Origin: Eledone cirrhosa | Lineage: Eukaryota | NCBI GenBank assembly: GCA_964016885.1 | Contig: OZ024742.1 | Location: forward strand, 90,272,001 to 90,336,000 | Reading direction: 5' to 3' | DNA length: 64,000 bases | Part shown: one piece after another, positions 647 through 63,700 of the stretch | Position numbering within the stretch: position 1 is the first letter of the stretch | Layout of the letters: the number at the start of each line of letters is the position of its first letter | Notes under the pieces: generated by a model | The model's input: the letters and a program-made list of their open reading frames with translations, nothing else | What the model was told of the DNA's origin: nothing | Database searches by the model: none | Position numbers and translations under genes: made by a program

Positions 647-1039
647 TACTCTATCAAATATATATAATTATACATATATATATGATTAAACATATATATA
701 TAAACGGAAATAATTGTTTCTACTTTAGGCACAAGGCCAGCAATTACCCAGTGTATTACTGGTACTATATAAACTGAAATAATGAAACGAAATTTCATTT
801 CTCACACTTAGTACGGCTGTTACTTAAATATAAGTATGTATACGTACATACATATATGTATACAGACGTACAGTAGTATGTATATATATATACATAATGC
901 ATACATATATATATATGTACGTATGGATTTACCGAACATTTATTACAATGCTCGGTGTGTTTGTAAACAAACATCCCGAATTAGGCGGTACAGTGTCTAG
1001 CAACCATCGTTGCTCTTTTGTTCAACACAGACAAAGGAA

Positions 1040-1080
1040 CTATGTACTAGTTTCAAGCTTATTAGCTATCGTCAGCAACG
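1040..1080 (-). ncRNA. Minimal type I hammerhead ribozyme (family A)
   Basis: Minus strand CGUUG-CUGACGA-UAGCUAAUAAGCUU-GAAA-CUAG-UA-CAUAG: intact core, stem II AGC/GCU, palindromic stem III ACUAGU. Confidence 0.75.
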
Positions 1081-1559
1081 TATACCTTCGTGCCAGATGA
1101 TTGAACGTCTGAAAGTTTATACTTTCCTTATGCATATTAACGGCTGAGCAGCCTAATTTGCATATCGAGTGAGTTAATCGGCCGAGCGCACCGAAAACGA
1201 TAAACGGAAAAAATGAAACGAAATTTCATTTCTCACTCTTAGTACGGCTGTTACTTAAATATAAGTATGTATACGTACATACATATATGTATACAGATGT
1301 AAAGTAGTATATATATATATGTAATATACATACTACTGTACGTCTGTATACATATATGTATGTACGTATACATACTTATATTTAAGTAACCGCCGTACTA
1401 AGAGTGAGAAATGAAATTTCGTTTCATTTTTTCCGTTTATCGTTTTCGGTGCGCCCGGCCGATTAACTCACTCGATATGCAAATTAGGCTGCTCAGCCGT
1501 TAATATGCATAAGGAAAGTATATACTTTCAGTCGTTCAATCATCTGGCAGGAAGGTATA

Positions 1560-1600
1560 CGTTGCTGACGATAGCTAATAAATTTGAAACTAGTACAGCG
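1560..1600 (+). ncRNA. Minimal type I hammerhead ribozyme (family A)
   Basis: CGUUG-CUGACGA-UAGCUAAUAAAUUU-GAAA-CUAG-UA-CAGCG; stem I CGUUG/CAGCG, stem II weakened. Confidence 0.7.
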
Positions 1601-1846
1601 TTCCTTTGTCAGTGTTGAACAAAAGAGCAACGATGGTTGCTAGACACTGTACAACTTAATTCGTGATGTTTGTTTACAAACACACCGAGCATTATAAATG
1701 TTCGGTGAACCCATACGTACATATATATATATATGTGTGCATTTATGTATATATATATATACATAATACTGCACGTCTGTATACATATATGTATGTACGT
1801 ATACATACTTATACATATATATATAATTATACATATATATATAATT

Positions 1847-2283: not shown

Positions 2284-3038
2284 CTTTCGTTTCTGAATTT
2301 GATTAGCAAGATTCTTTATCTGAAAACGTGTGTTGAAACCGATATTGTTATGCTTTGGGAGGGTCATTTTGCCAATAAGAAACACACGCACCAGTTGCTT
2401 TCACTCCAATTTATTATATAATTTAAATTTATATATTTAAGAATTTATAAATTTCCGGTTGGTTGGTTGGTTCCACAACCGGACGGTTGTTCATAAATTG
2501 TCAAAGTTCTTTCGTCACACATTCTGTGACCTCTACAGTGACGGGATATTCTTTTCTTTGTTTTTGTGCCTCTCCTTTGTTCTGTCCTACGCTATCTTGT
2601 TTAAATAGAAAACATGAATGGAATAGCAACATCACAACTTACAAGAAAGGACAAAATGAAAACACACACACACATAGAACACACAACCAGCCAGTAGCAT
2701 GTAAATAAACAAATAAACAAATATAAACACACACAGACACCCTGATGTAACACATGCGCAAACTAGGCACACAACACACACAAGAACAAGATGGCGTAGG
2801 CCATAACAAAGGAAAGGCACAAAAACAAAGAAAATAATCCTCAGTCACTGAAGAGGTCACAGAATGTGTGACGAAAGAACTTTGACAATATATGAACAAC
2901 CCTCCGGTTGTGGAACCAACCAACCAACCGGAAATTTATAAATTCTTAAATTTATAAATTTAATTTATAATAAATTGGAGTGAAAGCAACTGGTGCGTGT
3001 GTTTCTTATTGGCAACATAACCCTCCCAAAGCATAACC
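2284..3038. mobile_element. Family B PLE 3'-end fold-back insert (left arm sense -, right arm sense +), junction ~2601
   Basis: 2346-2600 is the reverse complement of ~2785-3038; same sequence as the 3' end of the PLE at 9046-10745; (TA)n both sides. Confidence 0.85.
2844..2886 (+). ncRNA. Minimal type I hammerhead ribozyme (family B), intact core
   Basis: GUCA-CUGAAGA-GGUCACAGAAUGUGUGAC-GAAA-GAAC-UU-UGAC; stem I GUCA/UGAC, stem II GUCAC/GUGAC. Opposite-arm copy 2500-2542 (-) has mutated core CUGUAGA. Confidence 0.8.
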
Positions 3039-3054
3039 ATATATATATATATCT

Positions 3055-6000
3055 ATAGTTAAAACTTAGACCGGACAAAAAGCGAGATGCAGTACAAATA
3101 TGAGTTTATTATATTCACGCTTTTGAATGTGGGGCGGGGGACGTTTGGAGAAATGTGGGTAGGAAGAGAGTTCCGAGGGTGTGTGGGGGAGTGATGGAAA
3201 GACATTTAGAAAAAAGGGTTGAGAGAAAGGGGAGGAAAAACTATTGAAGAAGTACAAATAAAAATTAAAATAACCATAAAAATAAACATAAAAATAAACA
3301 AGTGGTGGAAGGGTGTGAGGCGTGTAGGGGTGGTGGCGGGTGGAGTTGGGAGAGCGAGGCGGGGGGTCCGAGCGGGGAGAGCTAAAGGTGGTGTTTGTGT
3401 ATGTGTGTAGGTGTACGTGTGTGTATGTGTGTGTGTGCGTGTGTATGTGAATGTGAGAGTTGGGGGAAGAATGAGGTTCCATGTTCAGGAAAAGGTGTGT
3501 GCGTGGGGTGGGGTGTAAGTCGGTGCGTGCGTGCGTGTGGATGGAGAGGGGTCAGAGGAGTGAGGGACGGTGACGTGTGGATTCCGGAGGCTGAGTGTGT
3601 ATATGTGGGGATACGCACGTGTGTGTTTCTGTTTATACGTGGTGTGGATGTAGGTGGCGTGGTTCTAAAAAAAATGTGGGTGTTTGTTCGTGGGTAAGTT
3701 CCTAAGGTAGTTCCGTGGTGTGTGCAATAAGATGTTGGATATTTCTCATGTTATAGAGTGGATTGATGGAACGATGACCGGTAGTTTGGAATCCATTAGT
3801 GGTTGTGGTCGTAAGTGGTGAGATGTGGGGTACGCGCGCAACAGGAAGTGGTCAGAGAGTCAAGGCAGGGTGAAGACATAGTAGTAGACGGGGATGATAG
3901 GTGGAGAAATGGTCTGAATGTGGTGAGGACTGTGTGAATGTGTGCGGAGGTGCGGTGGACAAGGGAGAGGATGGGTAGGTGTGAAAGGTGGAGGGGGATG
4001 GTGGTGATGTGGGGCGATGAGGTGTATATTAGTAGAGGTGTTAGTAGGATGTGTGTCTGTGAAGGGGTGTAGGTGGAGCAGGGAGAGGGAGAGGGAAAGA
4101 AAAGTGTTGAGGACGGAGGATGGATTGTAGAGTACTGGTGTGTGTGTGTGCGTGTTTGGATGAGTGTGTGTGTGGTAGAGGGGGTGTTAGTGGGAATTAT
4201 TAGTAGTGGGGAAAGGGTTGAATGCGGGTGTGTTGCTGGGGGTTGGTGGGGGTTGGTGGTGTGGAGTGCGTGATGTACGTAGGTGTGGGTGGGTGTGTGT
4301 GTGATGGTGTGTGTTCGTGTGCGTGTGGTCGGGGGTATGTTAGTGATATTAGTTGCGGGGTGGTCGGAGTGGATGTGTGGGTGAGGGTTAGTGGTGGTAG
4401 TAGGGTGTGTGGATAGTGTGAGTGCGTGTATATATGTACAGGTGGGTGTGTGCGTGTGTGGTGTGTGGGTGCACGTGTTTTACGGGAAGGGGCGTGGATG
4501 TAGTATGCGCCGGGGTGTAGTATGGGGGCGTTAATTTTATTAGTTGTGGGTGGGCCAATCGTGGTGGGGCGGTGAAACGGAGGAGTGTGTGTTAGTGGGG
4601 GATGTGTGCGGGGAAGGTGGGCGGTCGAAGGCTAAAGGAATAGGGATCGAGATTTCAGGCCGGGGGTGTGTGTGGGTCTGTAGTGTGAAGATGGTGTGTT
4701 GTTCGACCATGAGGCGGGTGGCGGGTGTTCCATGGCATTGGAGTAGGCCACATACTGTGAGGTGGTGGGCGGAATGTTCAGGGGAGCCAAAGTGGCGGGC
4801 GATGGGGGAACTCCTGCCGAGACGAATATCCCGGAGGTGTTAGGTGAAACGGCCCACCAGGCGACGTCCCGTCTGTCCGACGTAGGTTGCGCTACACTCC
4901 GTGCAGCTAAGTCCATATACTAGGTTGGAGGAGGTGCAGCTGAAGGCGTGCCGGACAGAAAGAGAGTGGCCGTTGGAACCCTGGAAGGTGGTGGTGTTGG
5001 TGATGTGGTGGCAGGTGTGAAAGCGAGGCCTGGAGCAGGGAAGGGAACTGGTGGGGGTCAAGGGTTGGGGTTATGGAGCTGCGGACGAGGAGGGTGCGGG
5101 GATTTGGCGCGCGTTTGAAGGAGGGGAGTGGTGGGGATGGGAAGATGGGAGAGGTGGAGGGGTCGGACTGGAGGCGTCGGAAGAGGCGGAGTATGGTACG
5201 GTAAGGTGGAGCGGTGGTAGTTGATGGGGAAGGGGAGACGGTTGGTGGGTGTACGGTGGCGTGTGTGAGGACGGTGGAGCGGTGGACAGCACGGGCACGA
5301 GTGAGGGCGGTGTGGACGAGGGCGTTAATCTCTCCGGATGAAATGGCTGACTAAGGAAAGGGCCTGGGACTCAAAGTCAGCATCTCGGCTGCAGAGGCGG
5401 CGGATCCGGAGGAGTAGGGAGTGTTTTGTGTGTGTGTAAGGTGGGAGGAGGTGAAGTCCAGTTAGGATTGGGAGGAGGTGGGTTTTAAGAAGGCGGAGGT
5501 GACAAGGGACCGGTGGCCGTGCGTGGTGGAGATAGAGGTGGTGAAGTGGAGGGAGGGTGGAAGGAGATGTCTAAGAAGTGGACGTGGGTGGTGGTATAGA
5601 GGTGGTGAAGTGGAGGGAGGGGTGGAAGGAGCAGAAGAAGGAGAGAAAGGAGTCGAGCTGTTCTCAGGTGAAGGTCGTGGCTCCGATACTATCGTCAATG
5701 TTACGACCGTACAGTTCGGGCGTGGGGCCGGTGTACCGGGCAAAGGTTTGCATAGTTTGGGCCCATTCTTGTGCCCATGGCTATCTCCATGACCTGTTGG
5801 TAAAACTCACCCGAGAAGGAGAAACAGTTGAGGGTGAGGATCAGCTCGGCGAAGCGAAGGAGGATGGGGAGGGGTCAAGTTCGAGGTAGTGTCAGAGGGC
5901 ACGAAGGCCGAGGGCGTGGAGATGACAGAATAGAGGGACTTGATATCTTGGGTGAAGAGGAGGGGGTGTGGGCCGGGTGTGAAAGTGAGGGAGTCGAACA

Positions 6001-6955
6001 GGCGGATGGCGAGGTTGGTGTCGGAGATGTGAGAGGGGAGGGTGGTGACGAGGGGGCGAGGATGGAGTCAAGAAAGGCGGAATGAGTTCGGTGGGGCAGT
6101 TGCAAGAGGAGACGATGGGGCGGCCGGGGTTTGGGGAGGAAGTAGATAGTGGGGCTGCGGTGGGTGCGGACGATTTGATGGGAAGCGGTGGGAGAGAGGA
6201 GGGAGGAGGAGATAACGTGCTGGATGGTGGGGGAAACTTGTTGTTGGTAGAGGGGTGTGGGTCGGAGAGTAGAGGGTGGTAGGAGAGTGGGTTACGGAGC
6301 TGCCTGAGGGCTTTGGCCGTGTAGAGGTCAGCGCGCCACACCACCACAGCGCCTCCCTTGCCCACCGGTTTGATGATGATGTCATCTTGGCTACGGAGGG
6401 AGCAGAGAGCGAAGAGTTTGCCCCGTATGATGTTATGCTGTTTGGAACGGTGGCGGAAGTCGAAGCGATTTACTGCGTTACGGGGCAGGCGTCGACGAAC
6501 GTATCCAGGCTGCTAAATTGCCCTGGTGCCGGCGTCCAAGACGATGGTCATCGGTCCAGGGCGAGAAACGGGTCTACGGCGTTCGGAGCCGGTGGGATTT
6601 GATGAAAATGGGCCTGTAGCTTCGTGCGTCGGACGAATCGCTCGACTTCCGTTCGGGTGCGGAACTCGTGGCTGTGCGGGGTGTGGGATATGAAGCGAAG
6701 GCCTCTACTGATGAGTGGACCCTCAGGTACGGAGACGGGGAGGTCAGGGATTATGGTGACAACAAGTGGGGGTGGGGCTGAGTGCGATTTGAGTGTGATA
6801 AGGTGGGTGAGGGATGAGGGGCGTGTGAGATTGGGTAGGGTGTGAGACGGGGGAGGTGAGTTTGTGGTCGAGGGTGTTGGGGAGGGTTGGATGGGGGTCA
6901 CGGGGATGGATGAGGGGTGGTGGAAGGTGGTGGTGGGGAGGAGTGAGTTAGCTTA
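3055..6955 (-). mobile_element. Degenerate Penelope-like retroelement (Neptune-like), RT plus C-terminal GIY-YIG
   Basis: Frameshifted pieces KGGAVVVWRADLY, NPGRPIVSSCNCPTELI, PCSRPRFHTC and FSCTSSNLVYGLSCTECSATYVGQTGRRL (GIY-YIG); long C/A-rich 3' UTR; bounded by TA repeats. Confidence 0.85.
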
Positions 6956-6979
6956 AGATATATATATATATATATAATT

Positions 6980-7112
6980 ATATGACGAAGAAAGTGTGGT
7001 AAGGAACGAGGTGGACCATAACGCACCAGAGTACTCGATACTCAGGTTAGTAGAGTGTGTAATAGGAAAAGAGTCCGGACCCCGACGGCTGAGCTCCGGC
7101 CGTTTCGACAGA
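6980..7112 (-). mobile_element. Family C PLE 3'-end fragment carrying the 3' half of an HHR
   Basis: Homologous to 8595-8722, 25945-26080 and 51581-51700; abuts (TA)n. Confidence 0.7.
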
Positions 7113-7859
7113 TAGATCCAAACTAAACCAGTAATTTTACGACGGTAGTGACCTAGTTGAAATTAGCAATGGGTACAGTCCATATATGGTCATGCAATCA
7201 AAACATAGCGGTACTATCATATCAAATAATCTTAAAAATTGTTTTTCTTTTCTGTCACGGGGAGTGGTCAAAGATTGTGTGATGTCATATACATGGTTGA
7301 ATTAAATACCTTCATAGCGGCGGTAGTCGGGTTGCTGAACTTCCCTGTAGAACAAAGGGGAGGGAGTAAGGTGATATTCTGTCCTCTGGATGCCAGGCCG
7401 GTCATGCGTAGAGAGAAATCTTTACAGCTATTTCTAAAGGGGGTAAGAACATAAGAGAAACAAGGCATATTATAGAGTGAATATTAGTATGCCAAGTCTA
7501 ACAATTGGCTAACAGGCAGAGCAAATATAATTTAATACTAATTAAATTTCTAATTCATAAAATTAAGTTGTTAGTTAGTCTTAAGCACTAGAACGGCACC
7601 TCAATGTAGTAATTTATCAATATTATCTTCCATAATGATACCCACCAACCCCATAAAAACCATGGCTGTGTGTTCGGCCGGTACTATGTATATTTAACAA
7701 GAGTGAAATTATTTGGGTTAACCTAAGGAAGAATGAAAACTGAATATAGTAGTGTAGATATGCAATGATCCACCTAAGTATAAGAGTGTGTAATTAATGA
7801 AGAAAAAAAAAGAAGAAAAAAATTTAAAATTAGAAAAAGATTTTTCTTCTTCTTTTCAA

Positions 7860-8110
7860 TCTCTTTTGCAAATTTAAAGAAGGCCTTATGATTGTTTTAG
7901 TATTTTCTGTGGCCCTGATTTCTCGCTCTGCCCTCTCCTTCTCACTGGAAAATTTGAGAGCAGTTTCAATGTCAGGTAGTATTCCTTCTTTTTTTTTTTT
8001 TTGTTATTTTTTTTTTGTGCATTCAGCTGGTTTGAGAGTTAAGTCCCTCGTCTCATAAGGACTTTCCTGTCTCTTGAAATAAGATTTCTGTGTCCGTTGG
8101 CCTTTTTCTC
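7860..8110 (-). mobile_element. CR1/L2-like LINE ORF2 remnant
   Basis: Minus-strand translation IETALKFSSEKERAEREIRATENTKNNHKAFFKFAKE resembles the pre-RT linker (KxNPKAFFKYAK). Confidence 0.4.
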
Positions 8111-8138
8111 CGGGACAAACTTATGGCGTATAATTATA

Positions 8139-8307: not shown

Positions 8308-8482
8308 TTAATATAGAAAAGGCTTCTACAGGACTACAGAACTGTTTCATTCGGGAGAAATCATTAGGAAGCCTGATGATTTCTCCTGAATTAAACAGTT
8401 CTAGTCCTGTAGAAACCTTTACTATATTAAATATTTATTCTTACTGTAGTTACCCCCGATTGAACACGGGAGAAACTTAAAT
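8308..8482. mobile_element. Short fold-back PLE terminal with paired, 5'-truncated HHR copies
   Basis: 8310-8368 is the reverse complement of 8373-8432; arm consensus CUGAUGA-UUUCUCCCGAAU-GAAA-CAGUUCUG-UA-GUCC; (TA)n both sides. Confidence 0.7.
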
Positions 8483-8515
8483 ATATATATATATTTATAT
8501 ATATATATATATATA

Positions 8516-8722
8516 TAGGAACGAATAAGACCCCGACGGCTGAGCTCAAGCCGTTTTGACGGCTAATTCTGGCCGGCTAATTCAGTACAGAATTAGCCGT
8601 CGAAACGGCTTGAGCTCAGCCGTCGGGGTCCTACTCGTTCCTATTACCCACTCTACTACCCTAAGTATTGAGTACTTTGGTGCGTTATGGTCCACCTGGT
8701 TCCTTACCACATTTTCTTCGTT
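8516..8722 (+). mobile_element. Family C hairpin element (long arm +), centred on HHR stem II
   Basis: TAGGAACGAATAAGACCCCGACGGCTGAGCTCAAGCCG ... CGGCTTGAGCTCAGCCGTCGGGGTCCTACTCGTTCCTA inverted repeat; embedded in (TA)n. Confidence 0.8.
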
Positions 8723-8804
<82 letters not shown>

Positions 8805-18717: not shown

Positions 18718-18800
18718 CATCAAGTGTAAATGTGTATCAACTTTACTCATATAGTTGCCAAATTTAAACAATATTAATATTCGCTTTTTTATTATTTTAG

Positions 18801-19510
18801 GTTATGGTTACTGTGGTACCCAGGTGTATAACCCTGCGACTCAAATTTGCTGTGAATCTCAGGTTTTATCCAAAAATGGATTGAAGAGTCCTGCTTGCTG
18901 TGGAAGTGTAGTATTTGATAGGGAAGATCAATTATGTTGCGCTGGTACTTTAATAGATAAGGCAGCAGATATGAATGCATGTTGTGGCAACGCGGGGATA
19001 GATGCATCTCTTACGGTCTGTTGTGGGGGGAAAAATACAGTCAGGCTCACCCACATATGTTGTGGTGGGGTAGCAGTTAAAAGAGAAACTGTAGTTGATG
19101 GTTGTTGCGGGGCAGCTCTTATCAATACATACAAAGAACTTTGCTGTGGTGGGGTTAAAAAGGTGATCGCAACCAGCTTTCCTGGAGGTTCTAATGTCAT
19201 AGAAAACACATACGCTTGTTGTGGATCCAACATTTACAAAACAACTGAAAACGAATGTGTCGCTGGAAATATCAGGCCAAAGCATGTCCATTATCCACAT
19301 CCACCGATGCTACCACCCAGAATACCAATACCACCACCCCAACTACCAATACCGCATCCCCATCTACCAATACCACATCCCCAACTACCAATACCACCAC
19401 CCCAACTACCAATACCGCATCCCCATCTACCAATACCACATCCCCAACTACCAATACCACCACCCCAACTACCACTATATCCATGGTGGACACGGCCGGG
19501 GTGGCAATAA
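18801..19510 (+). CDS. Terminal coding exon of a galaxin-like dicysteine-repeat protein with Pro/His-rich C-terminal repeat
   Basis: Acceptor TTTTTTATTATTTTAG|G at 18800/18801; open frame with repeated YNPATQICC / ACCG..F/Y....QLCC motifs; TAA at 19508-19510; AATAAA downstream. Upstream exons not identified. Confidence 0.85.
19318..19475 (+). repeat. Coding minisatellite, 21-bp unit with 63-bp higher-order repeat (PIPPPQL/PIPHPHL/PIPHPQL)
   Basis: CCAATACCACCACCCCAACTA variants in tandem, in frame. Confidence 0.9.
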
Positions 19511-25890: not shown

Positions 25891-25894
<4 letters not shown>

Positions 25895-26078
25895 AACCAG
25901 TAAGACCCCGACAGCTGAGCTCAAGCCGTTTCGACGGCTAATTCTCAGAATTAGCCGTCGGAACGGCTTGAGCTCAGCTGTCGGGGTCTTACTGGTTCCT
26001 ATTACCCACTCTACTACCCCAAGTATTGAGTACTTTGGTGCGTTATGGTCCACCAGGTTCCTTACCACATTTCCTTCG

Positions 26079-26080
<2 letters not shown>
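25891..26080 (+). mobile_element. Family C hairpin element
   Basis: Near-perfect palindrome 25891-26002 centred on GGCTAATTCT-C-AGAATTAGCC, long arm continues to 26080; (TA)n both sides. Confidence 0.8.
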
Positions 26081-37759: not shown

Positions 37760-40700
37760 ACAGCGCTGCGATCGAATGTGGCTTTTTAGCCCAGCCAATT
37801 ATCTAAAATGTCTTGCACAGAGTCGGCAACCAAAACATTCACTGGGAATAGTCGGCTGTGGTTGGAGTTCTTGTACTCTTGCATGTCGCTTGAGCCCTCC
37901 TGCTGATTTACATTCTCTACCACATGTTTGGCAAGCATGATGAGTAGCATCTCCAACAGCAGCCTGGTAGTCAACCACTGGTCTTACTTTATGACTGCGA
38001 AGATGACTTTCGAGTCCAGCTTTGCTTAGGCAGAGTCTCGCACAGACGCTGCATGTCAAAACCATAGGAGGACCCTCGCCGTCTGGAAGTGCAACAGCAA
38101 TGCCCTTCCTCACATCCCGCTTTACTTTCTCGTATGCGATTCGAGATGCCTCAAAGGCAACTTTTCCCTCATATACAGTCTTTCTCCATTTATTACGATC
38201 AGCAGCAATATTTTCCCATGTATCAGCAGAGATGTTAGCGTCTTTCAGAGAAGCTTTCAAGGAATCCTTATACCTCTTTTTTGGTTTATGTGGCGGTCGT
38301 TTTCCGTTAACTAACTCTCCATAAGAGTTAGTTAACGAGAGTTGTTTTGGTATTCTAGAATCCTTCATCCTGGCAAGGTGACCACTCCAACGGAGTCGTT
38401 GCTTAAGCACAAGAGCTTCTATACTGTCACACATAGAGCTTTCCAAAATCTCGACATCACTGATGTGGTCCCTCCAGTGAACGCCATGGATCCGTCTGAG
38501 ACACATCTGATGGAAACGCTCCAATTGCTTAAGGTGGTGTCGATATGTGACACAGGTCTCGCAGGCATAAAGAAGACAAGAGAGCACACATGCCCTGTAC
38601 ACCTTTACCTTTGTCCTCCTGCATATGTCTCGCCGACTCCAGAGTCGCCTTTCTAGCTTTCCGAAAGCATCACTTGCTTTCCTAATCCTAAGTGAAATTT
38701 CACTGTCAAGGTTGCTGTATCGATTGACACTGCTTCCCAGGTAGACAAACTGATCAACCACTCCAAGTCGTTTGCCATACACATAGATGTTTGGTTCAGT
38801 GTACTGCTTACCAGGGGCAGGTTGGTACATGACGACGGTTTTCTTGAGACTGACAGTCAATCCTAGGGCAGTGCAAGCGTCAGAAAATGCATTCAAAATG
38901 TGCTGCATATCACTCTCTGTGTGCGCTACAAGATCGCAATCATCTGCATACAAGAGGTCTCTTATGATTGATGTAAATACTTTTGTCTTCGCAGCAAAGC
39001 GCCTGATGTTAAATATGCTGCCTGAGGTTCGATATCGGATGTAACACCATGCTCGCAATTCCTGAATGCAATACAGAAAACCATTGCAAAGTATATGGCA
39101 AACAGGATCGGTGCTGGAATATCTCCCTGTTTCACTCCATTTTTTACTGAGATAGGCTTCGACATGTTACCTCCGACATTAACCCAAGCCTTCATGTCGT
39201 CATGGAAAGACCTAACTAAAGCAATGAACTTATCAGGGCAACCAAGTTTATGGAGAACCTTCCATAATGCATCTCTGTTAACAGTATCGAAAGCTTTTGT
39301 CAGATCGACAAAAACCTGATACAGATCCAAGCCTTGTTCCATGCACTTCTCCTTGAGCTGTCTAGCTGAGAAGATCATATCAGTAGTGCCGCGTCCAGCA
39401 CGAAAACCAGATTGACTTTCAGGAAGAACACAATCTGCAATGTGTGTCAGTAGACGGTCCAGAAGCACCCTACATAAAACTTTCCCTACGACAGAAAGTA
39501 ATGATATACCTCTGTAGTTCCCACAATCATTCCTGTTACCCTTTCCCTTGTACAAGACCACCATTACTGCATCTCTCCAGTCCTCAGGTACAGATTCATT
39601 AGCCCATATCCTGCCAAACAAAGAGTGAAGATGTTGCAGGAGTCTCTCACCACCATATTATAGGAGCTCAGCATGTATGCCATCCATACCTGGAGATCTT
39701 CCACTGTTCAGCTTCGAAATAGCCACTGCAACCTCCACAAGCGTCAGAGGTTCTGCGAGAGCTACTTTCACAGGACTTTCTGGAATGAGATTGAGGAAAT
39801 CTTCACTGACGACAGACGGCTGATTCAAAAGATCATCAAAGTGCTCTCGCCACCTTCGTAGAATTCCTTGTGAGTCACGAAGAAGTTCTTTGCCATCCTT
39901 GCTGCGAAGCGGTGTCACCAGAGAAGAAGACGGTCCATAAACCTCACGCAAGAGACTGTACAACAGCTTTGTGTTATTGGAATCTGACGCAGTTTGTATC
40001 TCACCAGCCTTCTCACTCCACCACTGATCCTTCATCTGAGAAAGACTCCGCCTAACACATGATTTTATATCCCTAAGTTCCTCATGCAACGTATTCCTCT
40101 CCTGTGGTTTTGCCGTCAAGTAGCGTGACAGAGCACGCCTCTTATCAGCCAACAATTCTTCTATATGTACATCATTCTCATTAAACCAGTCCTGATGTTT
40201 TCTCTGCACCAATCCCAGAACACGCCTGCCTACATCATAAACCGACTTTTTAAGGGTCGGCCAATCCTCACCAAGATCTGCAGCCTGCATCTCTTCTTCC
40301 AATGTCCTCTTCACATTTTTATCCTTAAGACGAACAGCATTCAATCTTTTGGGCAGGGCAACACCAGGAGCCCGGATTTTACGTTTAGTGATTAGTTTCA
40401 CTTTTGCGCGTACCAGGCGGTGGTCAGTCCAGTACTCAGCTCTACGAAGAGCACGAACACACTGCACATCCTGTCTGTCACGCATCCTGACTAGGACGTA
40501 GTCCAAAAGATGCCATTCCTTAGATGCAGGATGCATCCATGTGGTCTTGAATTTGTTCTTTTGTTGGAACATGGTGTTGGTAACACACAGATCCAGCTCC
40601 TCACACATCTGCAGCAGGAGCATACCATTGTTGTTACACTTTCCCACCCCATGCCTTCCGATTACATTCCATGTGTTAAAATCCCTACCCACTCTAGCAT

Positions 40701-41670
40701 TAAAGTCACCAAGCACGATGACTTTGTCTGCCTGAGGGATATTTCTTAAAACACATTTCAAGGCATGGTAAAAGGACACTTTTTCTTCATCGACAGAATT
40801 CATAGTTGGAGCGTACACACTCACCAGGGTAGCATATCTTCCTTTGTCCAGCGGAACTCTCATGGACATAAAGACGCTCACTAATCCCTACTGGGAATTC
40901 TTCTAATTTATTCACAAGTACAGTCTTAACAGCAAATCCTACCCCAGCCTCTCTTCTGGTTCCTTCATCTCTTCCTTTCCAGAAGAATGTATATTCTCCA
41001 CAAAATTCTGTAAGATGACCATCCCCAGCTAACCTCGGCTCAGATAAAGCCGCGATGTCAAGATCGTAACGTCGAAGCTACTTTGCAACAAGAGCAGTCC
41101 TTCGTTAAGGACGCTCCAAGGAATCCCTGTCAAGCAGCGTCCGTACGTTCCAGCAGCCAAGACTAAATGCCTTGTTTGGCTCTATTACAATGGCATGATG
41201 ACGAGCGGGCCCAGGATGTGATAACCTGGAGCCCCTGCCCTTATTGCCAATTATCTCTTTTATATTGTTCTGGAACATCATTGAATTGGAAAAAAAAAAA
41301 ATGTAATAATAATAGTAATAATAATAATAATAATAATAGTACACTATTAATAGTTATTAATGCACTCGTGCAATGCCTGTGCGTGACGAATATTTTTAAA
41401 GTGAGGAAAGACTGTGCACTGAGCCAATCCCACTCTCTGAGCGACAGTAGCTATAACCCGAAAAGAAGAAAAGAACAACATCATCGGTAACTACTGAGCC
41501 GCAGGTTTTATGTCGGAGTTAACCCAGTTTCCTGAGATGCCTTCTCCTAGACGAATGCCCTGACAAGGGCATTCTCCTAGAAGAATGCTCTGACAAGGGC
41601 TAGTGGTTCTTCACTGCCAGTGGTTTAACTGCGCGATCGGGCATCCAGCCCGATTATTTCTGTCCCCGCA
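37760..41670 (-). mobile_element. Near full-length RTE-clade LINE (APE endonuclease + RT + C-terminal C2H2 fingers), few disablements
   Basis: WNVRTLLD, VYAPT, LGDFNARVG, WHLLDYVLVR, WTDHRLV (APE); NYRGISLL, FVDLTKAFDTV, GVKQGD, LLYADD (RT); premature stops at ~41105 and 39658, frameshifts near 40885 and 39050. Confidence 0.95.
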
Positions 41671-43448: not shown

Positions 43449-45740
43449 AGTGTGGTTCGTAGTAGAGGAAATAAATTCGGTCAGTAGGAATGTGTGTGTA
43501 CGTGTGTGGGGATATTTTAACATGTTGAAAGATATTTTTCAGTTCTTGTCTTATACGGAGAAGTGTGTGTGTGTGTGTATGTCTGTGTGTATGTTAGAGT
43601 ACGCGTGTGTATGTGTGTGTATGTGTGTGTGTATGTGTGTGTGTGTGTGTGTGGATGGACCAGTATTTTTGTGATACTGGTAAAAATGGTGTACATTATT
43701 CGATATTTTCAGTAATTTGCAAAAAACGTTTCTTTCAAAAGAACATCAAAAACATTAATAATAAAAGGGGGGAAATAATGTATAGTATTGTCATAACACC
43801 AAGGTGTGTGTGAGTGTCCAGTTTGTGCGTACTGCAAGGGGAATCCATTAGGCCCTGCCGTATGGGAAAACTTGTGTACAAACATGTATGTGCCCATCAG
43901 TGTGCAATGCATGTGTGCGTAAATGTATGTTTGTGTGTCGGCACGTTTATATCTATAAACATCAAAAGGTATGCAAATTTGTGTATATTTGTGTTGCACC
44001 ATAGAACATGTGTGTTTACGTATGTCATTGTGTTTATATGTGGATAGAAATGTATGTAGGATGTATGCTGATGTAGGTATGTATGTTGACGTGTGTATGT
44101 TCGTCTTAGGGAGAAGTGTTTAGACGGGGTCGGTATTTGTTAATAAAGTGAGATTCCTTGCTGATGCGCTGGGTGTGGGTGGCATTATCTTTAAATTTGT
44201 AGAGGGGAAAGATTATAAAGTTGGGATGATTTTAGGCGGCACAGGTATTAATGTGTTCACTTAATGGTATTTTTCTGTATTCCCGTATTTTAATTTGGGA
44301 TCTATGGACAGTCATGCGTTGGCGGAGGCTCTTTTTGGTCTGGCCTATGTATTGTTCTCGACAACCTGAGCAAGTTAATACATACATTAGATTTTCTGAT
44401 GCGCATGTGAAATTGTGTTTTACTATAAAACGTTGTCCTTCTTTGAAATAGAATTCCGAACACTCTATTAGGTTGATGCGTATGCCACAGTTGGGTCTAT
44501 CACATTTTCTTACTGTGGGTTTCGTTGTTGTAGCTGGCAGTACTTTGGCATGTGTTAGGATGTTTTTCATTGACTTAGATTGTCTTTTGCTCTTTATGAT
44601 ATCGTGTGTTCGAAGGATTTGGTTCAATCTATGGTCCTTTGTTAACACAGGGATGTTCTGGAGGATGGTGTCAAAGGCCTCAATGTTGAGGGGTTGTGTG
44701 TGGAGATGTATGGAACAGCCAGCTTTTAGTTTCAGTCGATTTACTTTAGGGTGTCTAAGGTTCTGGGTACTGAGTTTTAGGGCACGTTGGATTCCATTGT
44801 CAATTAGTGATGCAGGGTAATCCCTACCTATGAGTATGTCCTTTAATTCTTGTAGCCGTAAGTAATAGGTGTTTTTATTGGAGACTATAGTAGAGATTCT
44901 CTTGGCTAAGTTGTAGGGAATATTAATTTTAACGAGTCTAGGGTGGCAAGAGTTGAAAGGAAGATATTGCTTAGAGTCTGTGGGCTTGTAGTATATGTCT
45001 ATTTCTATTTTTTTGTTATGAATCTTAATGAGGATGTCGAGGAAGGGCAGTTGTTGATGGCTGTATTCCATCGTAAAGTTAATATTCGTGTTGAGCCCAT
45101 TTATAAGGGTGTGAAATTCTTTAAGTTTCTCGAAGTTTTCGTGCGACAGGATGAAGCAGTTATCTAGGTATCGCTTCCAGTTCTTTTCTATGTGTAAGTA
45201 GAGAGTGTTTCCAAATTTGTTTAGTACTTTAGTGTAGAGGGTGATTTCCAACTATCCCATGACTAGGTTGGCATAAGTGGGGGCTGTTTTCGTTCCCATG
45301 GCGGTCCCAGATTCCTGCCTGTAGGATTTGTTATTGAAAACGAAGTAATTGTTATCCAAGATAAATTTGAGTCCTTCTATCACGAATTCTTTTTTGATGC
45401 GTTGTTGGAGTTCGTTGTGGTAATTATCCTGCCAGAATTGGAAAGCTTATATTCCTAGGGTGTGGGGGATGTTGGAGTGTAGGTTGTCTACATCGAACGT
45501 CACTAGTAGGGTTTGTTCAGAAAGGGGCATAATAGGGAGGTGATTGAGCATATCTAGGTCGTCCCTTATATCGCTTTTGATGTGTTTGAGAAAAGGTTTG
45601 AGAAGGGCATCAATGAAGTTTCTAAGGCGGTGGGTTTCGCAAGCGGGGCCTGCTATTATAGGTCTTAATTTGAGATCATTGGGTGAGGGGACATTGATGA
45701 GTATGTCTGTGGCTTCCTTGCATGCCTTACTTATTAATAT
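42860..45740 (-). mobile_element. Penelope-like element (Neptune-like), 5'-truncated
   Basis: 339-aa ORF: WKRYLDNCFI, LPFLDILI, YYKPTDSKQYL, CDRPNCG, FTCASENLMYVLTCSGCREQYIGQT (GIY-YIG); upstream MGTKTAPTYANLVMG. Confidence 0.92.
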
Positions 45741-45954
45741 ATGTATTAACTTGCTCAGGTTGTCGAGAAAAATACATAGGCCAGACTAAAAACAGCCGAA
45801 TATATTATCTACGTATAGAACAGTTTATACAAATTAATTAAAATGATAAATCAAGGTATACAAACCGACCATAACTATTAACACCCAGGCAAGTTCAGAA
45901 TAAAGCTATGTTGGGCAATTAAGTGAAGACATATAGATCAGGTATTGCTCGTCG

Positions 45955-46164: not shown

Positions 46165-47940
46165 AAAAACTCGCATGAAGACGAACATCCCTTTTAATCT
46201 AGCAAGAAGAATTTGCACAATTGTCTCCAATTATGAAACGCGAAATAAAAGACTTCAAGAATTAAAGGAAATTCTACTCGAAAGACTACCCACCATTACT
46301 AATAAATAATGGAATAGAAAGTGCTCAAGCAATAAGCATTGATGAATTACGAAAACAAAAACAAATTCAAGGTACGTCCAATATTCTATCATATATCTCA
46401 ACACACGACCCAAGAAATGCGGAATTTACATTTTTCGCAAGAACATCCTACTATTGAAACAAGACCCAAGAATGAAAAAAGCCCTTGAAACACACAAAAT
46501 AATCAAAAGCAAAAGACAACCGAAATCAATAAAAACATTACTCACAAGATGCCAAATTACCCACCACTAACCTACAACCAACTGTCACAAAATGTGGGCA
46601 CTCTAATTGTGGAACCTGCACTCACCTCATTGAAGGCAACACGTATACATTTCAATCAGGACAAAATTTTTCTGTAAAAAATCACTTCACTTGCCCATCA
46701 AAAAATCTGCTTTATGCCATTAAATGAATGGCATAAACGAAGGATGCTATGAAGATTATATAGGACACACTAAACTCACTCTAAGAAACAGAATCATAGT
46801 TCATCGCCAACAATTACGAGATCCAAGCACGAGACAGATACCACTAAGTGCACATCTAGACATATGCGCAAGTAATAAGACACCCACATTCCAAGTCTTC
46901 CCATTTTACCTTTGCGCTGACAATACAACAGAACAAATACGAATATATAAGGGAAATATGTTTATTCAAAAATATAGACCAGCATTAAATATAGTTTAAT
47001 ATACATTATGTCAACACCATAACATACTAACCATCCAAACAGACACATACATACACACACACATAACACCTTCTACTTTAGAAAATAAAAACCAGAACTA
47101 AATAAACCTTAACATACGTTAATACTCTAACACCTTAACATGCTAACCACACGATTCACAAACACACACAAAATATATATTCTCCCACACACACACATAA
47201 CACCCATACACACACACATACCCCCCCTCACAACACACACATAATACCCATACACACCCAAACAACTCCCTCCACTATTTCTACTAATAGAATCATCTTC
47301 CCACACACACAAACACACACAAGCACACAAATAAACATACATATCTCTACTTTCTTTATTTCAATAGAAAGTCTGAATTCTGACACCCCAGCGAACCAGC
47401 CATATTTACTGAACCAGAACAATTCTCCCAATTCCATTTCTCTTGAACATTATCTTTTGTTTGTCTTAAAATTCTCTAAAAACTACAAAATAAATTCCAA
47501 AATACGGGCGTGAAATTTAATGAACTTGTTCACGTGACAGTCATAAGTTCATTTATAACCAATCAAATTACATTAATAAAAAAAAGCCTTCGTGAGCCAC
47601 CTTTTTTAAAGTAAAAAGAAATTCAAACAAACTGGCGCGAAAGCTGATGACTGCATCAACCAACCAAACTTCACTCATATATGAAAAGACAAGCTGAGCT
47701 GTCCTCGTCCTTGGTTTGAAGAACTAAGTAAGGCGAACTGGCGCGAAATTTATTATACTTAATCACCAACCAATCAAATTACTACTCTAAAAACCTGGCG
47801 TTTCAAGCCACTTTTTCCATATAAAATAAGTAACATTCAAAAACCAACCAGATGTGAGAAAAACCACAGACCCTCCATCTCAACTCTACTTTTGAAAAGC
47901 AGAGGAACTGCGAAACCGGTAAAGGAACCAAATAAATATA
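46165..47940 (+). mobile_element. Penelope-like element fragment, subfamily related to 42860-45740
   Basis: NIPFNLARRICTIVSN, CGHSNCGTC, FTCPSKNLLYAI, YIGHTKLTLRNRIIVHRQQL. Confidence 0.88.
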
Positions 47941-48760: not shown

Positions 48761-51251
<2,491 letters not shown>

Positions 51252-51580: not shown

Positions 51581-51581
<1 letters not shown>

Positions 51582-51767
51582 CAAGGGATTGTGGTAAGGA
51601 ACCAGATGGACCATAACGCACCAGAGTACTCAATACTTAGGGTAGTAGAGTGGGAAATAGGAAAAAGTATGACCCCGACAGCAGAACTCAAGACGTTTCG
51701 ACAGCTATTTCTGGACTCCAGCAATAGCCGTCGAAACGGCTTGAGCTCTGCTGTCGGTGTCATACTT

Positions 51768-51772
<5 letters not shown>
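51581..51772 (-). mobile_element. Family C hairpin element (long arm -)
   Basis: Palindrome 51661-51771 centred on GCTATTTCTGG-ACT-CCAGCAATAGC; (TA)n both sides. Confidence 0.8.
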
Positions 51773-51825
<53 letters not shown>

Positions 51826-51828
<3 letters not shown>

Positions 51829-52902
51829 TTAAAACAATGAAATAAAAAATCATGTTATTATAGATATACATCACTGCTTTACGAGCGTTTCTAGATGGTC
51901 ATAATACATTGTATCTATACTTATACACAGTTATTGATCTATGTAAGTTTACAAACTATCAGATAGAGAGAATATTTACTTACATGCATATCACCAGCTG
52001 TTTTCAAAAGCAATAATAATTTTATTCAATAATAATTTTACTCAGAATTAGTATTATGTCCATATTTGGAGGTAGTTAAAGAACTAACGAATCAAATTGT
52101 TTTTTTCATATGGTGTTAAGACGAAAAGTAATACACTTTAGTTGAGGTCATGACCCTTTGAAAGAAGTGGTTGAAAGGTGTTAGTAGAGATGGCATAAAA
52201 ATCTATTAGGAAGGAAGTGGATTGTCAAACTGATAGTTGAATGTATCTTGTATAGTGAATTTAAAAGGAATGTCAAAATAATTGGTGATTAGTGTTGAAT
52301 TGAGTTTTAAGGTGAATATAAATATATTTTGACATTCCTTTTAAATTCACTATACAAGATACATTCAACTGTCAGTTTGACAATCCCCTTCCTTCCTAAT
52401 AGATTTTTATGCCATTTCTACTAACACCTTTCAACCATTCCTTTCAAAGTGTCATGAACGCAACTAAAGTGTATTACTTTTCATCTTAACACCATATGAA
52501 AAAAACAATTTGATTCGTTAGTTCTTCAACTACCTCCAAATATGGACATGATACTAATTGTGAGTAAAATTAATATTGAATAAAATTATTATGCTTTTGA
52601 AAACAGCTGGTGATATGCATGTAAGTAAATATTCTCTCTATCTGATAGTTTGTAAACTTACATAGATCAATAACTGAGTATAGATACAATGTATTATCAC
52701 CATCTAGAAACGATCGTAAAGCAGTGAAGTATATCTCTAATGAGTTCATTTTTTATTTCATTGTTTTAACTTATATCATGACTCTGTTTTCCTTTTAATG
52801 TGTTATTGTTTTCTGCGATTTATCTTAACCTACAACATTTTCAACACATGGATTACATTGAGTTCTTCATACATAATAGACCCCAGAACTTACAGTAGAT
52901 AC

Positions 52903-52978: not shown

Positions 52979-55900
52979 ATATAATGAAATGACAGGAGGC
53001 TGGATTTGTGTAAATCCTTGAAAGGTTTATTATACTATGATAATTTCAATGACCGGGTTCCGTATGAATCCGGTGATATCATCAGGTATTCGAAATATAA
53101 AACGTCAATGTAATAGATGAAATCCATGGGGCTCAAAATCGAGGACCTGAGGGCGATCGCTATCCTGTACCTTCTACCTTAGCCGGTCGCCCTCGAATGA
53201 CGTGGCTAAAGCTTACAGTGTGCTACTACCGGTCAGATAAAGGAAAACAGAAAGGGATGGGAACATAAGTTAGCGTTAATCTCATGCCACAAGACAAAAG
53301 AAAGAAAGAAAGGAGGGAGAGAGAAGAAGGGGGAAGGAAGAAGAAGAGAAGCCAGGGTTAATGTCAGCTATAAGAAGAAAGACAGAAAGAAGAGGAGGAA
53401 AGGTCGGTATTACAGTTAGGCCAGAATTGTCGCGAGGAAATTGTTTTTTTATTCTACGGGACCCGTATCTAAACAACTACTAGCGGTCAGATATAGGCAA
53501 ACAAAAAGGGGGAAGGAAGATAAGTCTGTGGGAGGAAGACAGAAAGAGGGGAGAAGAGAAGGAAGAGAATGAAGAAGTAGAAAAGTAAGGGTTGGTGGCT
53601 ACAAGAAGGAAGATAGAAAGCAAGAGGAAGAAAGGTCGATATTAATGTCAGACTACAGTCAGGCCAGGAGTGGCGCGAGAAAATTTTTACAGGGACCCGT
53701 ATCTTAGCAGAGGTGAATATATTGGGGGTCAGTGTGTTATAATGTGTGATCAGAATATTGGAACGTTACGTTTTTGTTTAGACTTATAGGATGAGGTTGA
53801 AAAAATTAATAATTAATATTTAATATTAAAGAAATTAGAAAATTTAAAGTTAAGCAGTTTAACATTTTAAGGTTGATATATCTAATAGTTCTGATTTGAT
53901 CTGTAATTTAAAGGTACTATGTGGCGGTTAAAACACCGGCCGCGCTCCGGGCCCCCGGAGCGAATTAAACCACTCCGAGTAGTTTCATTTACCGAAAGAA
54001 GGGGAAATTTATTTTCCCAAGCACTCAAGGTAGGCCCATGCACCAGGGGGCTGGTCGCGCCGCCATTCAAACCCACCCAACAGTCCGACAGAAAGTTGGA
54101 ACTTTAAAATATTGTTTAAATTTATAGGATGAAGTTGAAAAGATTTATAATTAATATTTAATATTAAAGAAATTAGAAAATTTAAAGTTAAACAGTTTAA
54201 CATTTTAAGGTTGATATATCTAATAGTTCTGATTTGATCTGTAATTTATAGGTACTATGTGGCGGTTAAAACACCGGCCGCGCTCCGTGCCCCGGGGGCG
54301 AATTAAGCCACTCCGAGTAGTTTCATTTACCGAAAGAAGGGGAAATTTATATTTCCAAGCACTCCAGGTAGGCCCATGCTCCAGGGGGCTGGTTGCGCCG
54401 CCATCAAAACCCGCCCAGCAGTCCGACTGAAAGTTGGAACTCTAAAATCTTGCTTAAATTTATAGGATGAAGTTGAAAGAATTTAGAATAAGATTATAAA
54501 ATTAAAGAGTAAGAAGATTGAGTATTGAACAAACAGAAAATTGAAAATTAAACATTTAAAAAAACTTCTATGAGGTTTTGGGTTGCGGGGTTTAATTAAA
54601 GAGAGTCTTTTATGAAAAAACGCTAATTGTATTATGTAGATCTATAATTTATCCTAGTGGGATGTAGAGTACGGGATATAGTCGTGTAATATTTATTTTT
54701 GTTCTCAGGGGAGACATTCTAGTGTCGTGTGCTAATGGGTACAAGTGAGCAAAAGTCCCAATAGGAGGAGTAGAAATACATGGATACATAGAAGTGGAAT
54801 ACGTGGAAGAGCACATTGATAAAGCAAAGGTATAAATATATAAACATATCAATATATAGATATAAATATGTAAATAAAGCAATAAGAGTGGTGTTGGAGT
54901 AAGATGGAGAAATCAAGACATAGGAGAAGTACAATATAGTTCAGGTTGCAGTATTTACCACTTGACAGAGCTGGTCTATTCCGTATTGTCAATCCTAATG
55001 TAATAATATAGAGAGTACTCAACGTAAAGCAATTCAACCGTCTTTGTTTTTGTAGTTGGTGGTGCTATTACGGAGTTAAATATTATAATGAAATGACAGG
55101 AGGCTGGATTTGTGTAAATCCTTCAAAGGTTTATTATACTATGATAATTTCAATGACCGGGTTCCGTATGAATCCGGTGATATCATCAGGTATTCGAAAT
55201 ATAAAACGTCAATGTAATAGATGAAATCCATGGGGCTCAAAATCGAGGACCTGAGGGCGATCGCTATCCTGTACCTTCTACCTTAGCCGGTCGCCCTCGA
55301 ATGACGTGGCTAAAGCTTACAGTGTGCTACTACCGGTCAGATAAAGGAAAACAGAAAGGGATGGGAACATAAGTTAGCGTTAATCTCATGCCACAAGACA
55401 AAAGAAAGAAAGAAAGGAGGGAGAGAGAAGAAGGGGGAAGGAAGAAGAAGAGAAGCCAGGGTTAATGTCAGCTATAAGAAGAAAGACAGAAAGAAGAGGA
55501 GGAAAGGTCGGTATTACAGTTAGGCCAGAATTGTCGCGAGGAAATTGTTTTTTTATTCTACGGGACCCGTATCTAAACAACTACTAGCGGTCAGATATAG
55601 GCAAACAAAAAGGGGGAAGGAAGATAAGTCTGTGGGAGGAAGACAGAAAGAGGGGAGAAGAGAAGGAAGAGAATGAAGAAGTAGAAAAGTAAGGGTTGGT
55701 GGCTACAAGAAGGAAGATAGAAAGCAAGAGGAAGAAAGGTCGATATTAATGTCAGACTACAGTCAGGCCAGGAGTGGCGCGAGAAAATTTTTACAGGGAC
55801 CCGTATCTTAGCAGAGGTGAATATATTGGGGGTCAGTGTGTTATAATGTGTGATCAGAATATTGGAACGTTACGTTTTTGTTTAGACTTATAGGATGAGG

Positions 55901-62534: not shown

Positions 62535-62543
<9 letters not shown>

Positions 62544-63692: not shown

Positions 63693-63700
<8 letters not shown>
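62535..63700. mobile_element. Non-coding fold-back element (arms 62535-63095 and 63143-63700) with an HHR in each arm
   Basis: Arms are reverse complements with scattered substitutions; (TA)n both sides. Confidence 0.85.
63377..63457 (+). ncRNA. Type I hammerhead ribozyme with a full intramolecular stem III (partner copy 62778-62858, -)
   Basis: UAUGCG-CUGAUGA-ACGCUAG...CUGGC-GAAA-CAGAUC-UCUUUG-GAUUUG-UC-CGCGUG; GUC triplet. Confidence 0.8.

What the first reader, a model, noticed from the sequence alone, without database searches (positions are those of the whole stretch)
8516..8722. Family C: palindromes whose centre is the ribozyme's own stem II
Seen: three independent inserts (8516, 25891, 51581) contain GAAA-CGGCUUGAGCUC(A/U)GC(C/U)G-UC-GG(G/U)GUC, the HHR 3' half with stem III and a GUC site (GGAA in the + arm at 25891). 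It follows a hairpin GAC(G)GCUA.UUCU..AG.A.UAGCCGUC. The expected CUGANGA half is absent and replaced by the reverse complement of the 3' half, and the loop differs among the three. Inference: the cDNA snaps back on HHR stem II and self-primes, destroying the ribozyme and leaving a ~200-bp MITE-like hairpin. The ribozyme fold would then act as the priming hairpin.
Basis: partly seen in the sequence, partly recalled or inferred. Interest (0 to 1): 0.72.

Follow-up and report, generated by a model that had tools for sequence, protein, structure and literature searches.

The report
Mirror-image stubs of Penelope-like retroelement
These ~190-base inserts in TA repeats are mirror-image pairs of one short, abundant repeat that carries only the back half of a hammerhead-ribozyme motif; they were likely made when a Penelope-like jumping gene copied its RNA from both ends of a DNA cut and the two copies were joined head to head, not by the fold-back priming first proposed, and one junction type stops exactly at the predicted self-cutting site.

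Summary
Three inserts (8518-8721, 25893-26079, 51581-51771) are 107-124-nt palindromes with a 79-80-nt unpaired tail, set in (TA)n. They carry GAAAC-stem III-GUC and no CUGANGA. A fourth copy without an inverted arm lies at 6985-7127.

Reads of the same species show a very abundant family with many different junctions. This is the known insertion layout of Penelope-like elements (PLEs): an inverted 5'-truncated copy plus a tail.

Snap-back on stem II is not the main route. Two of the three copies have 1-nt spacers. In 12 of 13 listed skip junctions the inverted arm holds sequence that the direct arm lacks. The outer ends are fixed, as two RT start sites would give. Most likely two cDNAs, primed from both cut strands, stop near the same point and are joined.

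No CUGANGA parent was found, but the genome could not be searched. One junction class has both arms ending exactly at the predicted scissile bond, a possible fossil of in vivo cleavage.

The parts
8518..8721 (+). Copy 1, whole insert between TA tracts 8481-8517 and 8722-8801
8518..8572 (-). Copy 1 inverted arm; outer end mirrors 8641, inner end 14-15 nt before the G of GAAA
8573..8599 (+). Copy 1 inner hairpin (second CGGCTAATTC at 8574-8583, 10 bp, 6-nt loop); candidate native stem II, or relic of an older palindrome used as template
   Evidence: layout also in X5 loose-end consensus
8602..8630 (+). Hammerhead 3' half: GAAA 8602-8605, stem III with palindromic loop, predicted cut after 8624, GGGGTC
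   Evidence: core numbering recalled, architecture from PMC4209133
8642..8721 (+). Copy 1 unpaired 80-nt tail; its two ends are the inferred two RT start sites
   Evidence: inference from PMC11167929
25893..26079 (+). Copy 2: inverted arm 25893-25945, 1-nt spacer 25946, direct arm 25947-25999, tail 26000-26079; predicted cut after 25982; arms 52 of 53 identical
51581..51771 (-). Copy 3: inverted arm 51717-51771, 1-nt spacer 51716, direct arm 51660-51715, tail 51581-51659; predicted cut after 51677; arms 47 of 53 identical
6985..7127 (-).

Best explanation
The inserts are head-to-head pairs of one short repeat end in (TA)n tracts, likely 5'-truncated copies of a Penelope-like element's ribozyme-bearing end, and likely made when the element's endonuclease cut both DNA strands and reverse transcription ran from each strand at a different fixed site on the RNA, after which the two copies would stop near the same point and be joined. 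One start is the tail end. The other lies about 80 nt upstream, just before TAT, which can pair with the TA target. Where the first copy runs past the second start, the shared part becomes the palindrome. Where it stops early, the insert is an inversion without duplication. Most copies stop 5-17 nt before GAAA (possibly loop II of a parent ribozyme, or an RNA end), so CUGANGA is lost by truncation and is not overwritten by self-priming. A minority stop at the ribozyme cut site. Shown: anatomy, fixed outer ends, variable and asymmetric junctions, shared arm variants, abundance. Inferred: PLE enzyme, two priming events, the reason for the stop, ribozyme activity.
For: Fixed outer ends: the inverted arm ends at TTCC|TA (within 1 nt) in 3 of 3 palindromes, and the tail is 79-80 nt in 4 of 4 copies. 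The anole PLE protein cuts and extends both strands and starts RT at two internal sites that bound the tail (PMC11167929). An inverted truncated copy plus tail, with (TA)n preference, is standard for PLEs (PMC8557442; PMC3846280).

Of 13 listed skip junctions, 7 have the direct arm starting inside the tail and 4 at 25996-25999, next to the second start; the inverted arm is contained in the direct arm in only 1. Copies 2 and 3 have 1-nt spacers. The arms of copy 3 share 5 letters found in neither arm of copies 1 and 2. Depth just past copy 2's centre is 2.4-4.5% of the depth just before it in 4 of 4 runs.

The junction 25909->25983 has both arms ending at the first base after the predicted cut, with one letter between. 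The window holds PLE reading frames, for example 4621-6742 and 44109-45755, and five other outward-facing hammerhead palindromes.
Against: No autonomous parent is linked to the family: no PLE coding trace in the 4 copies or in the 1 kb upstream of copy 4 (best profile E 0.15, against 5e-29 for the control). Only 15 of 128 joints and 24 of 776 loose-end rows were displayed, and skip joints are selected for asymmetry, so they show existence, not frequency. Asymmetric junctions could also come from later one-sided deletion at a hairpin tip. The tool warns that joints at low likeness or with short sides can come from repeats; contig sides were 20-29 letters, raw-read sides up to 65. The tail is twice the 30-40 bp reported. 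The cut-site junction rests on 4 contigs in X1 and 1 in X2 (one sample), with very unequal depth (213 against 11), and was absent from both RAD runs. The RAD depth ratios are distorted by AATT library cuts at the centre.
Confidence: 0.6

Rival explanations
1. One reading: the parent has CUGANGA followed by an 8-10-bp stem II; the cDNA runs through it, folds back on that stem and copies itself to the TA microhomology.
For: Copy 1's inner hairpin is stable as DNA (-10 kcal/mol, 0 of 200 shuffles as good). The X5 loose-end consensus before 25946 shows arm sequence joined to the native loop motif with a loop of about 15 nt. Schistosome PLE hammerheads have a 7-8-bp helix II (PMC4209133). Self-priming was proposed for PLE palindromes (PMC3846280). 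Reads of this class would be mapped and not loose, so the loose-end consensus is biased against them.
Against: It cannot give the 1-nt spacers of copies 2 and 3 or the extra arm of copy 1, nor 12 of 13 listed skip junctions. Copy 4 has no such stem. In the 8308-8430 palindrome the direct arm holds the whole core and the centre lies about 4 nt before CTGATGA; the other four centres lie 154-266 nt upstream. No parent was found.
Confidence: 0.13
2. Some palindromes are masters: their hairpin RNA is reverse-transcribed whole, so the palindrome spreads as a unit and its centre is remodelled later.
For: Both outer ends are fixed in 3 of 3. Copy 1's second CGGCTAATTC could be inherited from an older palindrome. 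Some junctions reach depths of 100-260 where single contigs show about 2-22, which suggests several copies each.
Against: Three copies have three centres. Copy 2's junction is under 5% of depth. The arms within a copy differ by 1, 3 and 6 of 53 letters, like independently aged insertions.
Confidence: 0.12
3. At the RNA 5' end or a strong stop the RT adds one letter and turns back onto its own cDNA without any stem (a U-turn), ending at the TAT microhomology.
For: Symmetric 1-nt-spacer junctions in copy 2, copy 3 and the 25909->25983 class.
Against: It needs a second process for the asymmetric junctions, while two-strand priming covers both classes and is shown in vitro.
Confidence: 0.1
4. A DNA-transposon MITE with a TA target duplication; the hammerhead half is chance.
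For: TA flanks, small size and high abundance. The loose half motif occurs 44 times in the window.
Against: The inverted repeat ends 79-80 nt inside the right end. Junctions and lengths vary. A copy without an inverted arm exists.
Confidence: 0.03

Closest known systems
Insertion unit of endonuclease-bearing Penelope-like elements (Arkhipova et al. 2013, PMC3846280; Craig et al. 2021, PMC8557442; passages read)
   Same: Inverted 5'-truncated copy joined head to head, tail at one end only, palindromes at the junction, microsatellite (TA)n targets.
   Different: No reading frame; the truncation falls inside the ribozyme; the tail is 79-80 nt, not 30-40; no parent is linked.
Poseidon element of Anolis (PAc) in vitro (Frangieh et al. 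2024, PMC11167929; parts 1-2 of 4 read)
   Same: Both strands cut and extended, two internal RT starts bounding the tail, AT-rich targets, uncleaved RNA as the main template.
   Different: In the parts read, inverted products are not analysed and no RNA ends were found at the ribozyme cut; here one genomic junction class ends there.
Type I hammerheads of metazoan PLEs (Cervera and de la Pena 2014, PMC4209133; parts 1-2 of 4 read)
   Same: GAAA-stem III-UH core with a palindromic loop III; pairs of motifs on opposite strands 100-700 bp apart are described.
   Different: CUGANGA is absent, and stem III is long (5-6 bp) where metazoan forms have 0-2 bp.
Twin priming of LINE-1 (as described in PMC11702581; passages read)
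   Same: A second RT primed from the other target end gives a 5' inversion, then end-joining.
   Different: In L1 the inverted piece lies next to the first cDNA with little overlap; here the second start is fixed and the two copies often overlap by about 55 nt.
Non-LTR retrozymes (bioRxiv 10.64898/2026.07.22.740005; part 1 of 5 read)
   Same: Short non-coding PLE derivatives with a type I hammerhead motif.
   Different: Defined by head-to-tail arrays with complete ribozymes; neither is seen here.

Membership tests
EN+ Penelope-like element | Reading frame with RT and GIY-YIG endonuclease in the element | tested here: not met
   No match in the 4 copies or upstream of copy 4 (a 57-aa piece gave only a repeat-driven hit to a NACHT protein). 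PLE frames exist elsewhere in the window. So it is filed as working like a PLE stub, not as a proven member.
EN+ Penelope-like element | Inverted 5'-truncated copy joined head to head | tested here: met
   3 of 4 copies
EN+ Penelope-like element | Tail extension at one end only | tested here: met
   79-80 nt in 3 of 3 palindromes; longer than the 30-40 bp
EN+ Penelope-like element | Insertion in microsatellite or AT-rich DNA | tested here: met
   (TA)n on both sides in 3 of 3 palindromes; TA-like on the tail side only in copy 4
EN+ Penelope-like element | Hammerhead motif in the pseudo-LTR | tested here: inconclusive
   3' half only
EN+ Penelope-like element | Shared end with an autonomous parent | not testable with these tools
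   No genome held; pattern scans empty or unrelated
Type I hammerhead ribozyme | CUGANGA core | tested here: not met
   0 of 4 copies; none in the 24 displayed of 776 loose-end rows
Type I hammerhead ribozyme | GAAA, stem III and UH site | tested here: met
   4 of 4 copies in at least one arm; 13-71 of 5000 shuffles
Type I hammerhead ribozyme | Native stem II closed by G10.1-C11.1 | tested here: inconclusive
   Hinted by copy 1 and one read consensus; absent in copy 4
Type I hammerhead ribozyme | Native stem I partner for GGGGUC | tested here: inconclusive
   An 11-pair helix folds in copy 4 but no better than shuffles (z -0.57)
Type I hammerhead ribozyme | Self-cleavage | not testable with these tools
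   Only the indirect junction at the predicted cut
MITE | Inverted repeats at both termini | tested here: not met
   The repeat ends 79-80 nt inside the right end
MITE | Uniform internal structure among copies | tested here: not met
   Three centres in three copies; many junctions
MITE | Target-site duplication | tested here: inconclusive
   Hidden by TA tracts
Non-LTR retrozyme | Head-to-tail array with complete ribozymes | tested here: not met
   No array of this unit in the window
tRNA-derived SINE | tRNA-like head | tested here: not met
   ARAGORN found 0 genes in the window; a decayed head could be missed

The most novel reading that the evidence does not exclude
The junctions of this family are a genomic map of RNA ends and RT stops on a PLE ribozyme. 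One class stops on both arms at the scissile bond, recording hammerhead self-cleavage in vivo. The main class stops in loop II, so the ribozyme's own fold sets where the palindrome turns and strips the copies of their catalytic half.
Probability: 0.3. Interest if true: 0.62.

Novelty: new variant of a known kind. Interest (0 to 1): 0.4.

Why it matters
Palindromic PLE stubs are known and common, so the object itself is ordinary. Two questions are open in the papers read: how the inverted copy forms (PMC3846280, PMC8557442), and whether PLE hammerheads cut in vivo (PMC4209133 notes no in vivo evidence; PMC11167929 found no RNA ends at the cut). A short, very abundant family whose two arms overlap the ribozyme makes both testable by counting junctions in one assembly.

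Tried and rejected
Whole genome: none held.

Parent search. Window: one match of CTGANGA-GACRGCT at 39806. It lies across the coding region of another retroelement and has no GACCCC before it or stem III after it; taken as chance. Metagenome contigs: 2 scans empty. Viral contigs: 2 scans empty. Prokaryote genomes: 1 scan empty and 1 with 3 bacterial hits that share only the pattern.

Sequencing runs: no RNA holder listed, so nothing is said on expression. The read ends at 25943 and 25949 in the RAD runs coincide with AATT sites and are taken as library cuts (the enzyme is inferred). The two opposite-strand joints (25902 and 25905 to 25996) were left out of the junction count as likely mapping of a subfamily onto the mirror arm.

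Structure and coding tests. A downstream CUGANGA (type II topology) was looked for by eye; the nearest letters are not conserved. A long native stem I in copy 4 is not significant. The idea that the 1 kb upstream of copy 4 is a PLE body found no support. The C-rich PLE next to copy 4 does not end in this family's sequence. Rfam: 0 matches at gathering score; 22 weak matches near copies 1 and 4, none a hammerhead. tRNA-SINE: not found.

Literature and scan notes. The one held supplement of PMC8557442 had none of three family motifs; other supplements of that paper, and those of the other papers, were not seen and may hold related consensus sequences. Earlier-finding look-ups by place, by sequence and by two word sets were empty. 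Paper searches listed no title on stem II priming or on junctions at the ribozyme cut; most listed papers were seen as listings only. Passages of PMC9977147 added only that non-autonomous Chlamys inserts are short.

Full report
What is there. The three inserts lie at 8518-8721 (+), 25893-26079 (+) and 51581-51771 (-), each between (TA)n tracts. Each consists of an inverted arm, a centre, a direct arm and an unpaired tail of 80, 80 and 79 nt; the palindromic part is 107-124 nt. A fourth copy without an inverted arm lies at 6985-7127 (-) and has the same tail end. The window is a eukaryotic repeat landscape. It has PLE-type RT plus GIY-YIG frames at 4621-6742, 44109-45755 and 46169-47005 and several other large palindromes.

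The ribozyme half. All four copies carry GAAA, a 5-6-bp stem III with a palindromic loop, GUC and GGGGUC. Such a half motif arose in 71 (at least 4 pairs) or 13 (at least 5 pairs) of 5000 shuffles of the direct arm, but the loose form occurs 44 times in the window. Context carries the rest. In 5 of 7 other palindromes examined a CTGANGA core followed by GAAA reads outward from the centre, none reads inward, one has only CTGAGTA and one has nothing. Family C has the same polarity. No CTGANGA lies in the four copies, nor within 314 nt upstream of GAAA in copy 4 (two one-mismatch near-matches). Rfam found nothing relevant.

What reads add. Four runs of the same species were laid on copy 2 at 80% likeness: two contig sets of one sample and two RAD read sets. 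Between 15,280 and 24,766 records were laid per run, so the family is very abundant; this is no copy number. Loose ends at the centre show that the native sense sequence continues upstream as AATTTAGTCC before AGAA(T/A)TAGCCGTC (95 and 86 contigs; 1268 and 1470 reads). The same motif is recognisable in copy 1 (14 of 16 letters, by eye), copy 3 and copy 4. Beyond it the consensus has about 50% agreement. Only 24 of 776 loose-end rows and 15 of 128 joints were displayed. Depth just past copy 2's centre is 2.4-4.5% of the depth just before it (the RAD values are distorted by AATT cuts), so that exact palindrome did not spread as a unit.

Junction geometry. Of the 13 listed skip joints (2 opposite-strand joints left out), the direct arm starts in the tail in 7, at 25996-25999 in 4 and inside the arm in 2. 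The inverted arm is contained in the direct arm in only 1. The inverted arm ends at least 5-16 nt before GAAA in 11 of the 13, and at or one base from the predicted cut in 2. In the window, the inverted arm reaches 14-15, 13 and 16 nt before GAAA, with spacers of 16, 1 and 1 nt. Its outer end is at TTCC|TA within one base in all three. The arms of one copy are 50, 52 and 47 of 53 alike. Copy 3's arms share 5 letters absent from copies 1 and 2, while copy 1's arms are no closer to each other than to copy 2's.

Mechanism. A self-primed cDNA can copy only what it already contains, and it needs a loop of at least 3 nt closed by a pre-existing stem (general knowledge). Copies 2 and 3 and 12 of 13 listed joints fail one of these conditions. 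The purified anole PLE protein cuts and extends both target strands and starts at two internal RNA sites that bound the tail, using mostly uncleaved RNA (PMC11167929). Applied here (inference), the tail end and TTCC|TA are the two starts. The two cDNAs grow towards the RNA's 5' side and are joined head to head. Overlap gives the palindrome, and an early stop of the first cDNA gives inversion without duplication. I put this at 0.6. Later one-sided deletion at a hairpin tip could mimic the asymmetric joints, and skip joints are selected for asymmetry.

The inner ends do cluster just upstream of GAAA. Copy 1 has a second CGGCTAATTC in direct position that forms a 10-bp hairpin (-10 kcal/mol as DNA, 0 of 200 shuffles as good), and with it the direct arm folds like stem II plus stem III. 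The X5 loose-end consensus shows a similar stem around a loop of about 15 nt, preceded by arm sequence and not by CTGANGA. A parent with such a stem II is therefore possible, and a subclass of copies may have arisen by snap-back (0.13). Copy 1 could equally have been copied from the RNA of an older palindrome. In other families the centre lies about 4 nt or 154-266 nt before CTGANGA, so stem II priming is no general rule. The parent could not be sought genome-wide, and collection scans were empty or unrelated.

The junction at the cut. The joint 25909->25983 has one letter between the arms, and both arms end at 25983, the first base after the predicted cleavage at 25982. If ends were independent and uniform over 53 positions, the chance would be 0.005 for 13 joints or 0.046 for all 128. 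If symmetric junctions are favoured anyway, it is 0.019 per such junction. It rests on 4 contigs in X1 and 1 in X2, one sample, depths 213 and 11, and no RAD reads. If real, it implies that a complete, active ribozyme existed in the parent, and it fits end-joining of two run-off cDNAs. It is a lead, not a result.

Comparison with what is known. An inverted truncated copy plus tail and (TA)n targeting are standard PLE features (PMC8557442, passages). Palindromes at inverted junctions were already read as self-priming, with alternatives left open (PMC3846280, passages). Paired hammerheads on opposite strands are described (PMC4209133, parts 1-2 of 4). Earlier notes of this scan report similar palindromic stubs in other genomes; they are unchecked and not independent support. 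The element works like a PLE stub. Formal membership is unproven because it has no reading frame and no linked parent. It is not a MITE (the repeat is not terminal), a retrozyme array or a complete hammerhead. Nine paper searches listed no title on stem II priming or cut-site junctions; the library lacks most subscription papers.

Verdict. Observation confirmed, interpretation partly supported, new variant of a known kind, interest 0.4. The value lies in a family whose junctions can be counted to decide how PLE inversions form and whether their ribozymes cut in vivo.

Noticed in passing
window 8308-8479: A second short palindrome plus a tail of about 49 nt, directly upstream of copy 1 and unrelated in sequence; its centre lies about 4 nt before a complete CTGATGA core, so it too turns at the 5' side of the ribozyme.
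   Followed up: partly
window 943-1697, 2347-3037, 54941-59974, 62538-63698: Larger head-to-head palindromes with a hammerhead-like core in each arm, 154-266 nt from the centre; the largest spans about 5 kb.
   Followed up: partly
window 49169-49673 and 51827-52771: Palindromes without a canonical core; the first lies inside a PLE-like coding remnant.
   Followed up: no
window 4621-6950 (-): Decayed, very C-rich PLE reading frame with a long C/A-rich 3' region, starting just after copy 4 and a short TA tract.
   Followed up: partly
window 7112-8135: About 1 kb of unassigned sequence between copy 4 and a TA tract; no other copy in the window and no PLE coding trace.
   Followed up: partly
window 7122-7127 (-) and read consensus: The native upstream motif contains TTTAG and TCCAG, which look like 3' splice sites, near where inverted arms end; in D. 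virilis the PLE intron ends at helix I. Untested.
   Followed up: no
window 8595-8602 and 8618-8625: AGCCGTCG occurs twice in direct repeat, so the upstream copy can compete for the 5' strand of stem III.
   Followed up: partly
window 18755-19510 (+): Exon-like frame with galaxin repeats (Pfam PF24748, E 8e-23) followed by a proline-rich 21-nt repeat.
   Followed up: no
window 37799-40887 (-): Non-LTR retrotransposon remnant with endonuclease and RT matches, split over three frames.
   Followed up: no
window 30565 (+), 16166 (-), 28890 (+): Further hammerhead-like motifs outside the palindromes examined.
   Followed up: no
L002 1501-1556 (+): Hammerhead-like arrangement in a bacterial genome record, unrelated to this family beyond the search pattern.
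   Followed up: no
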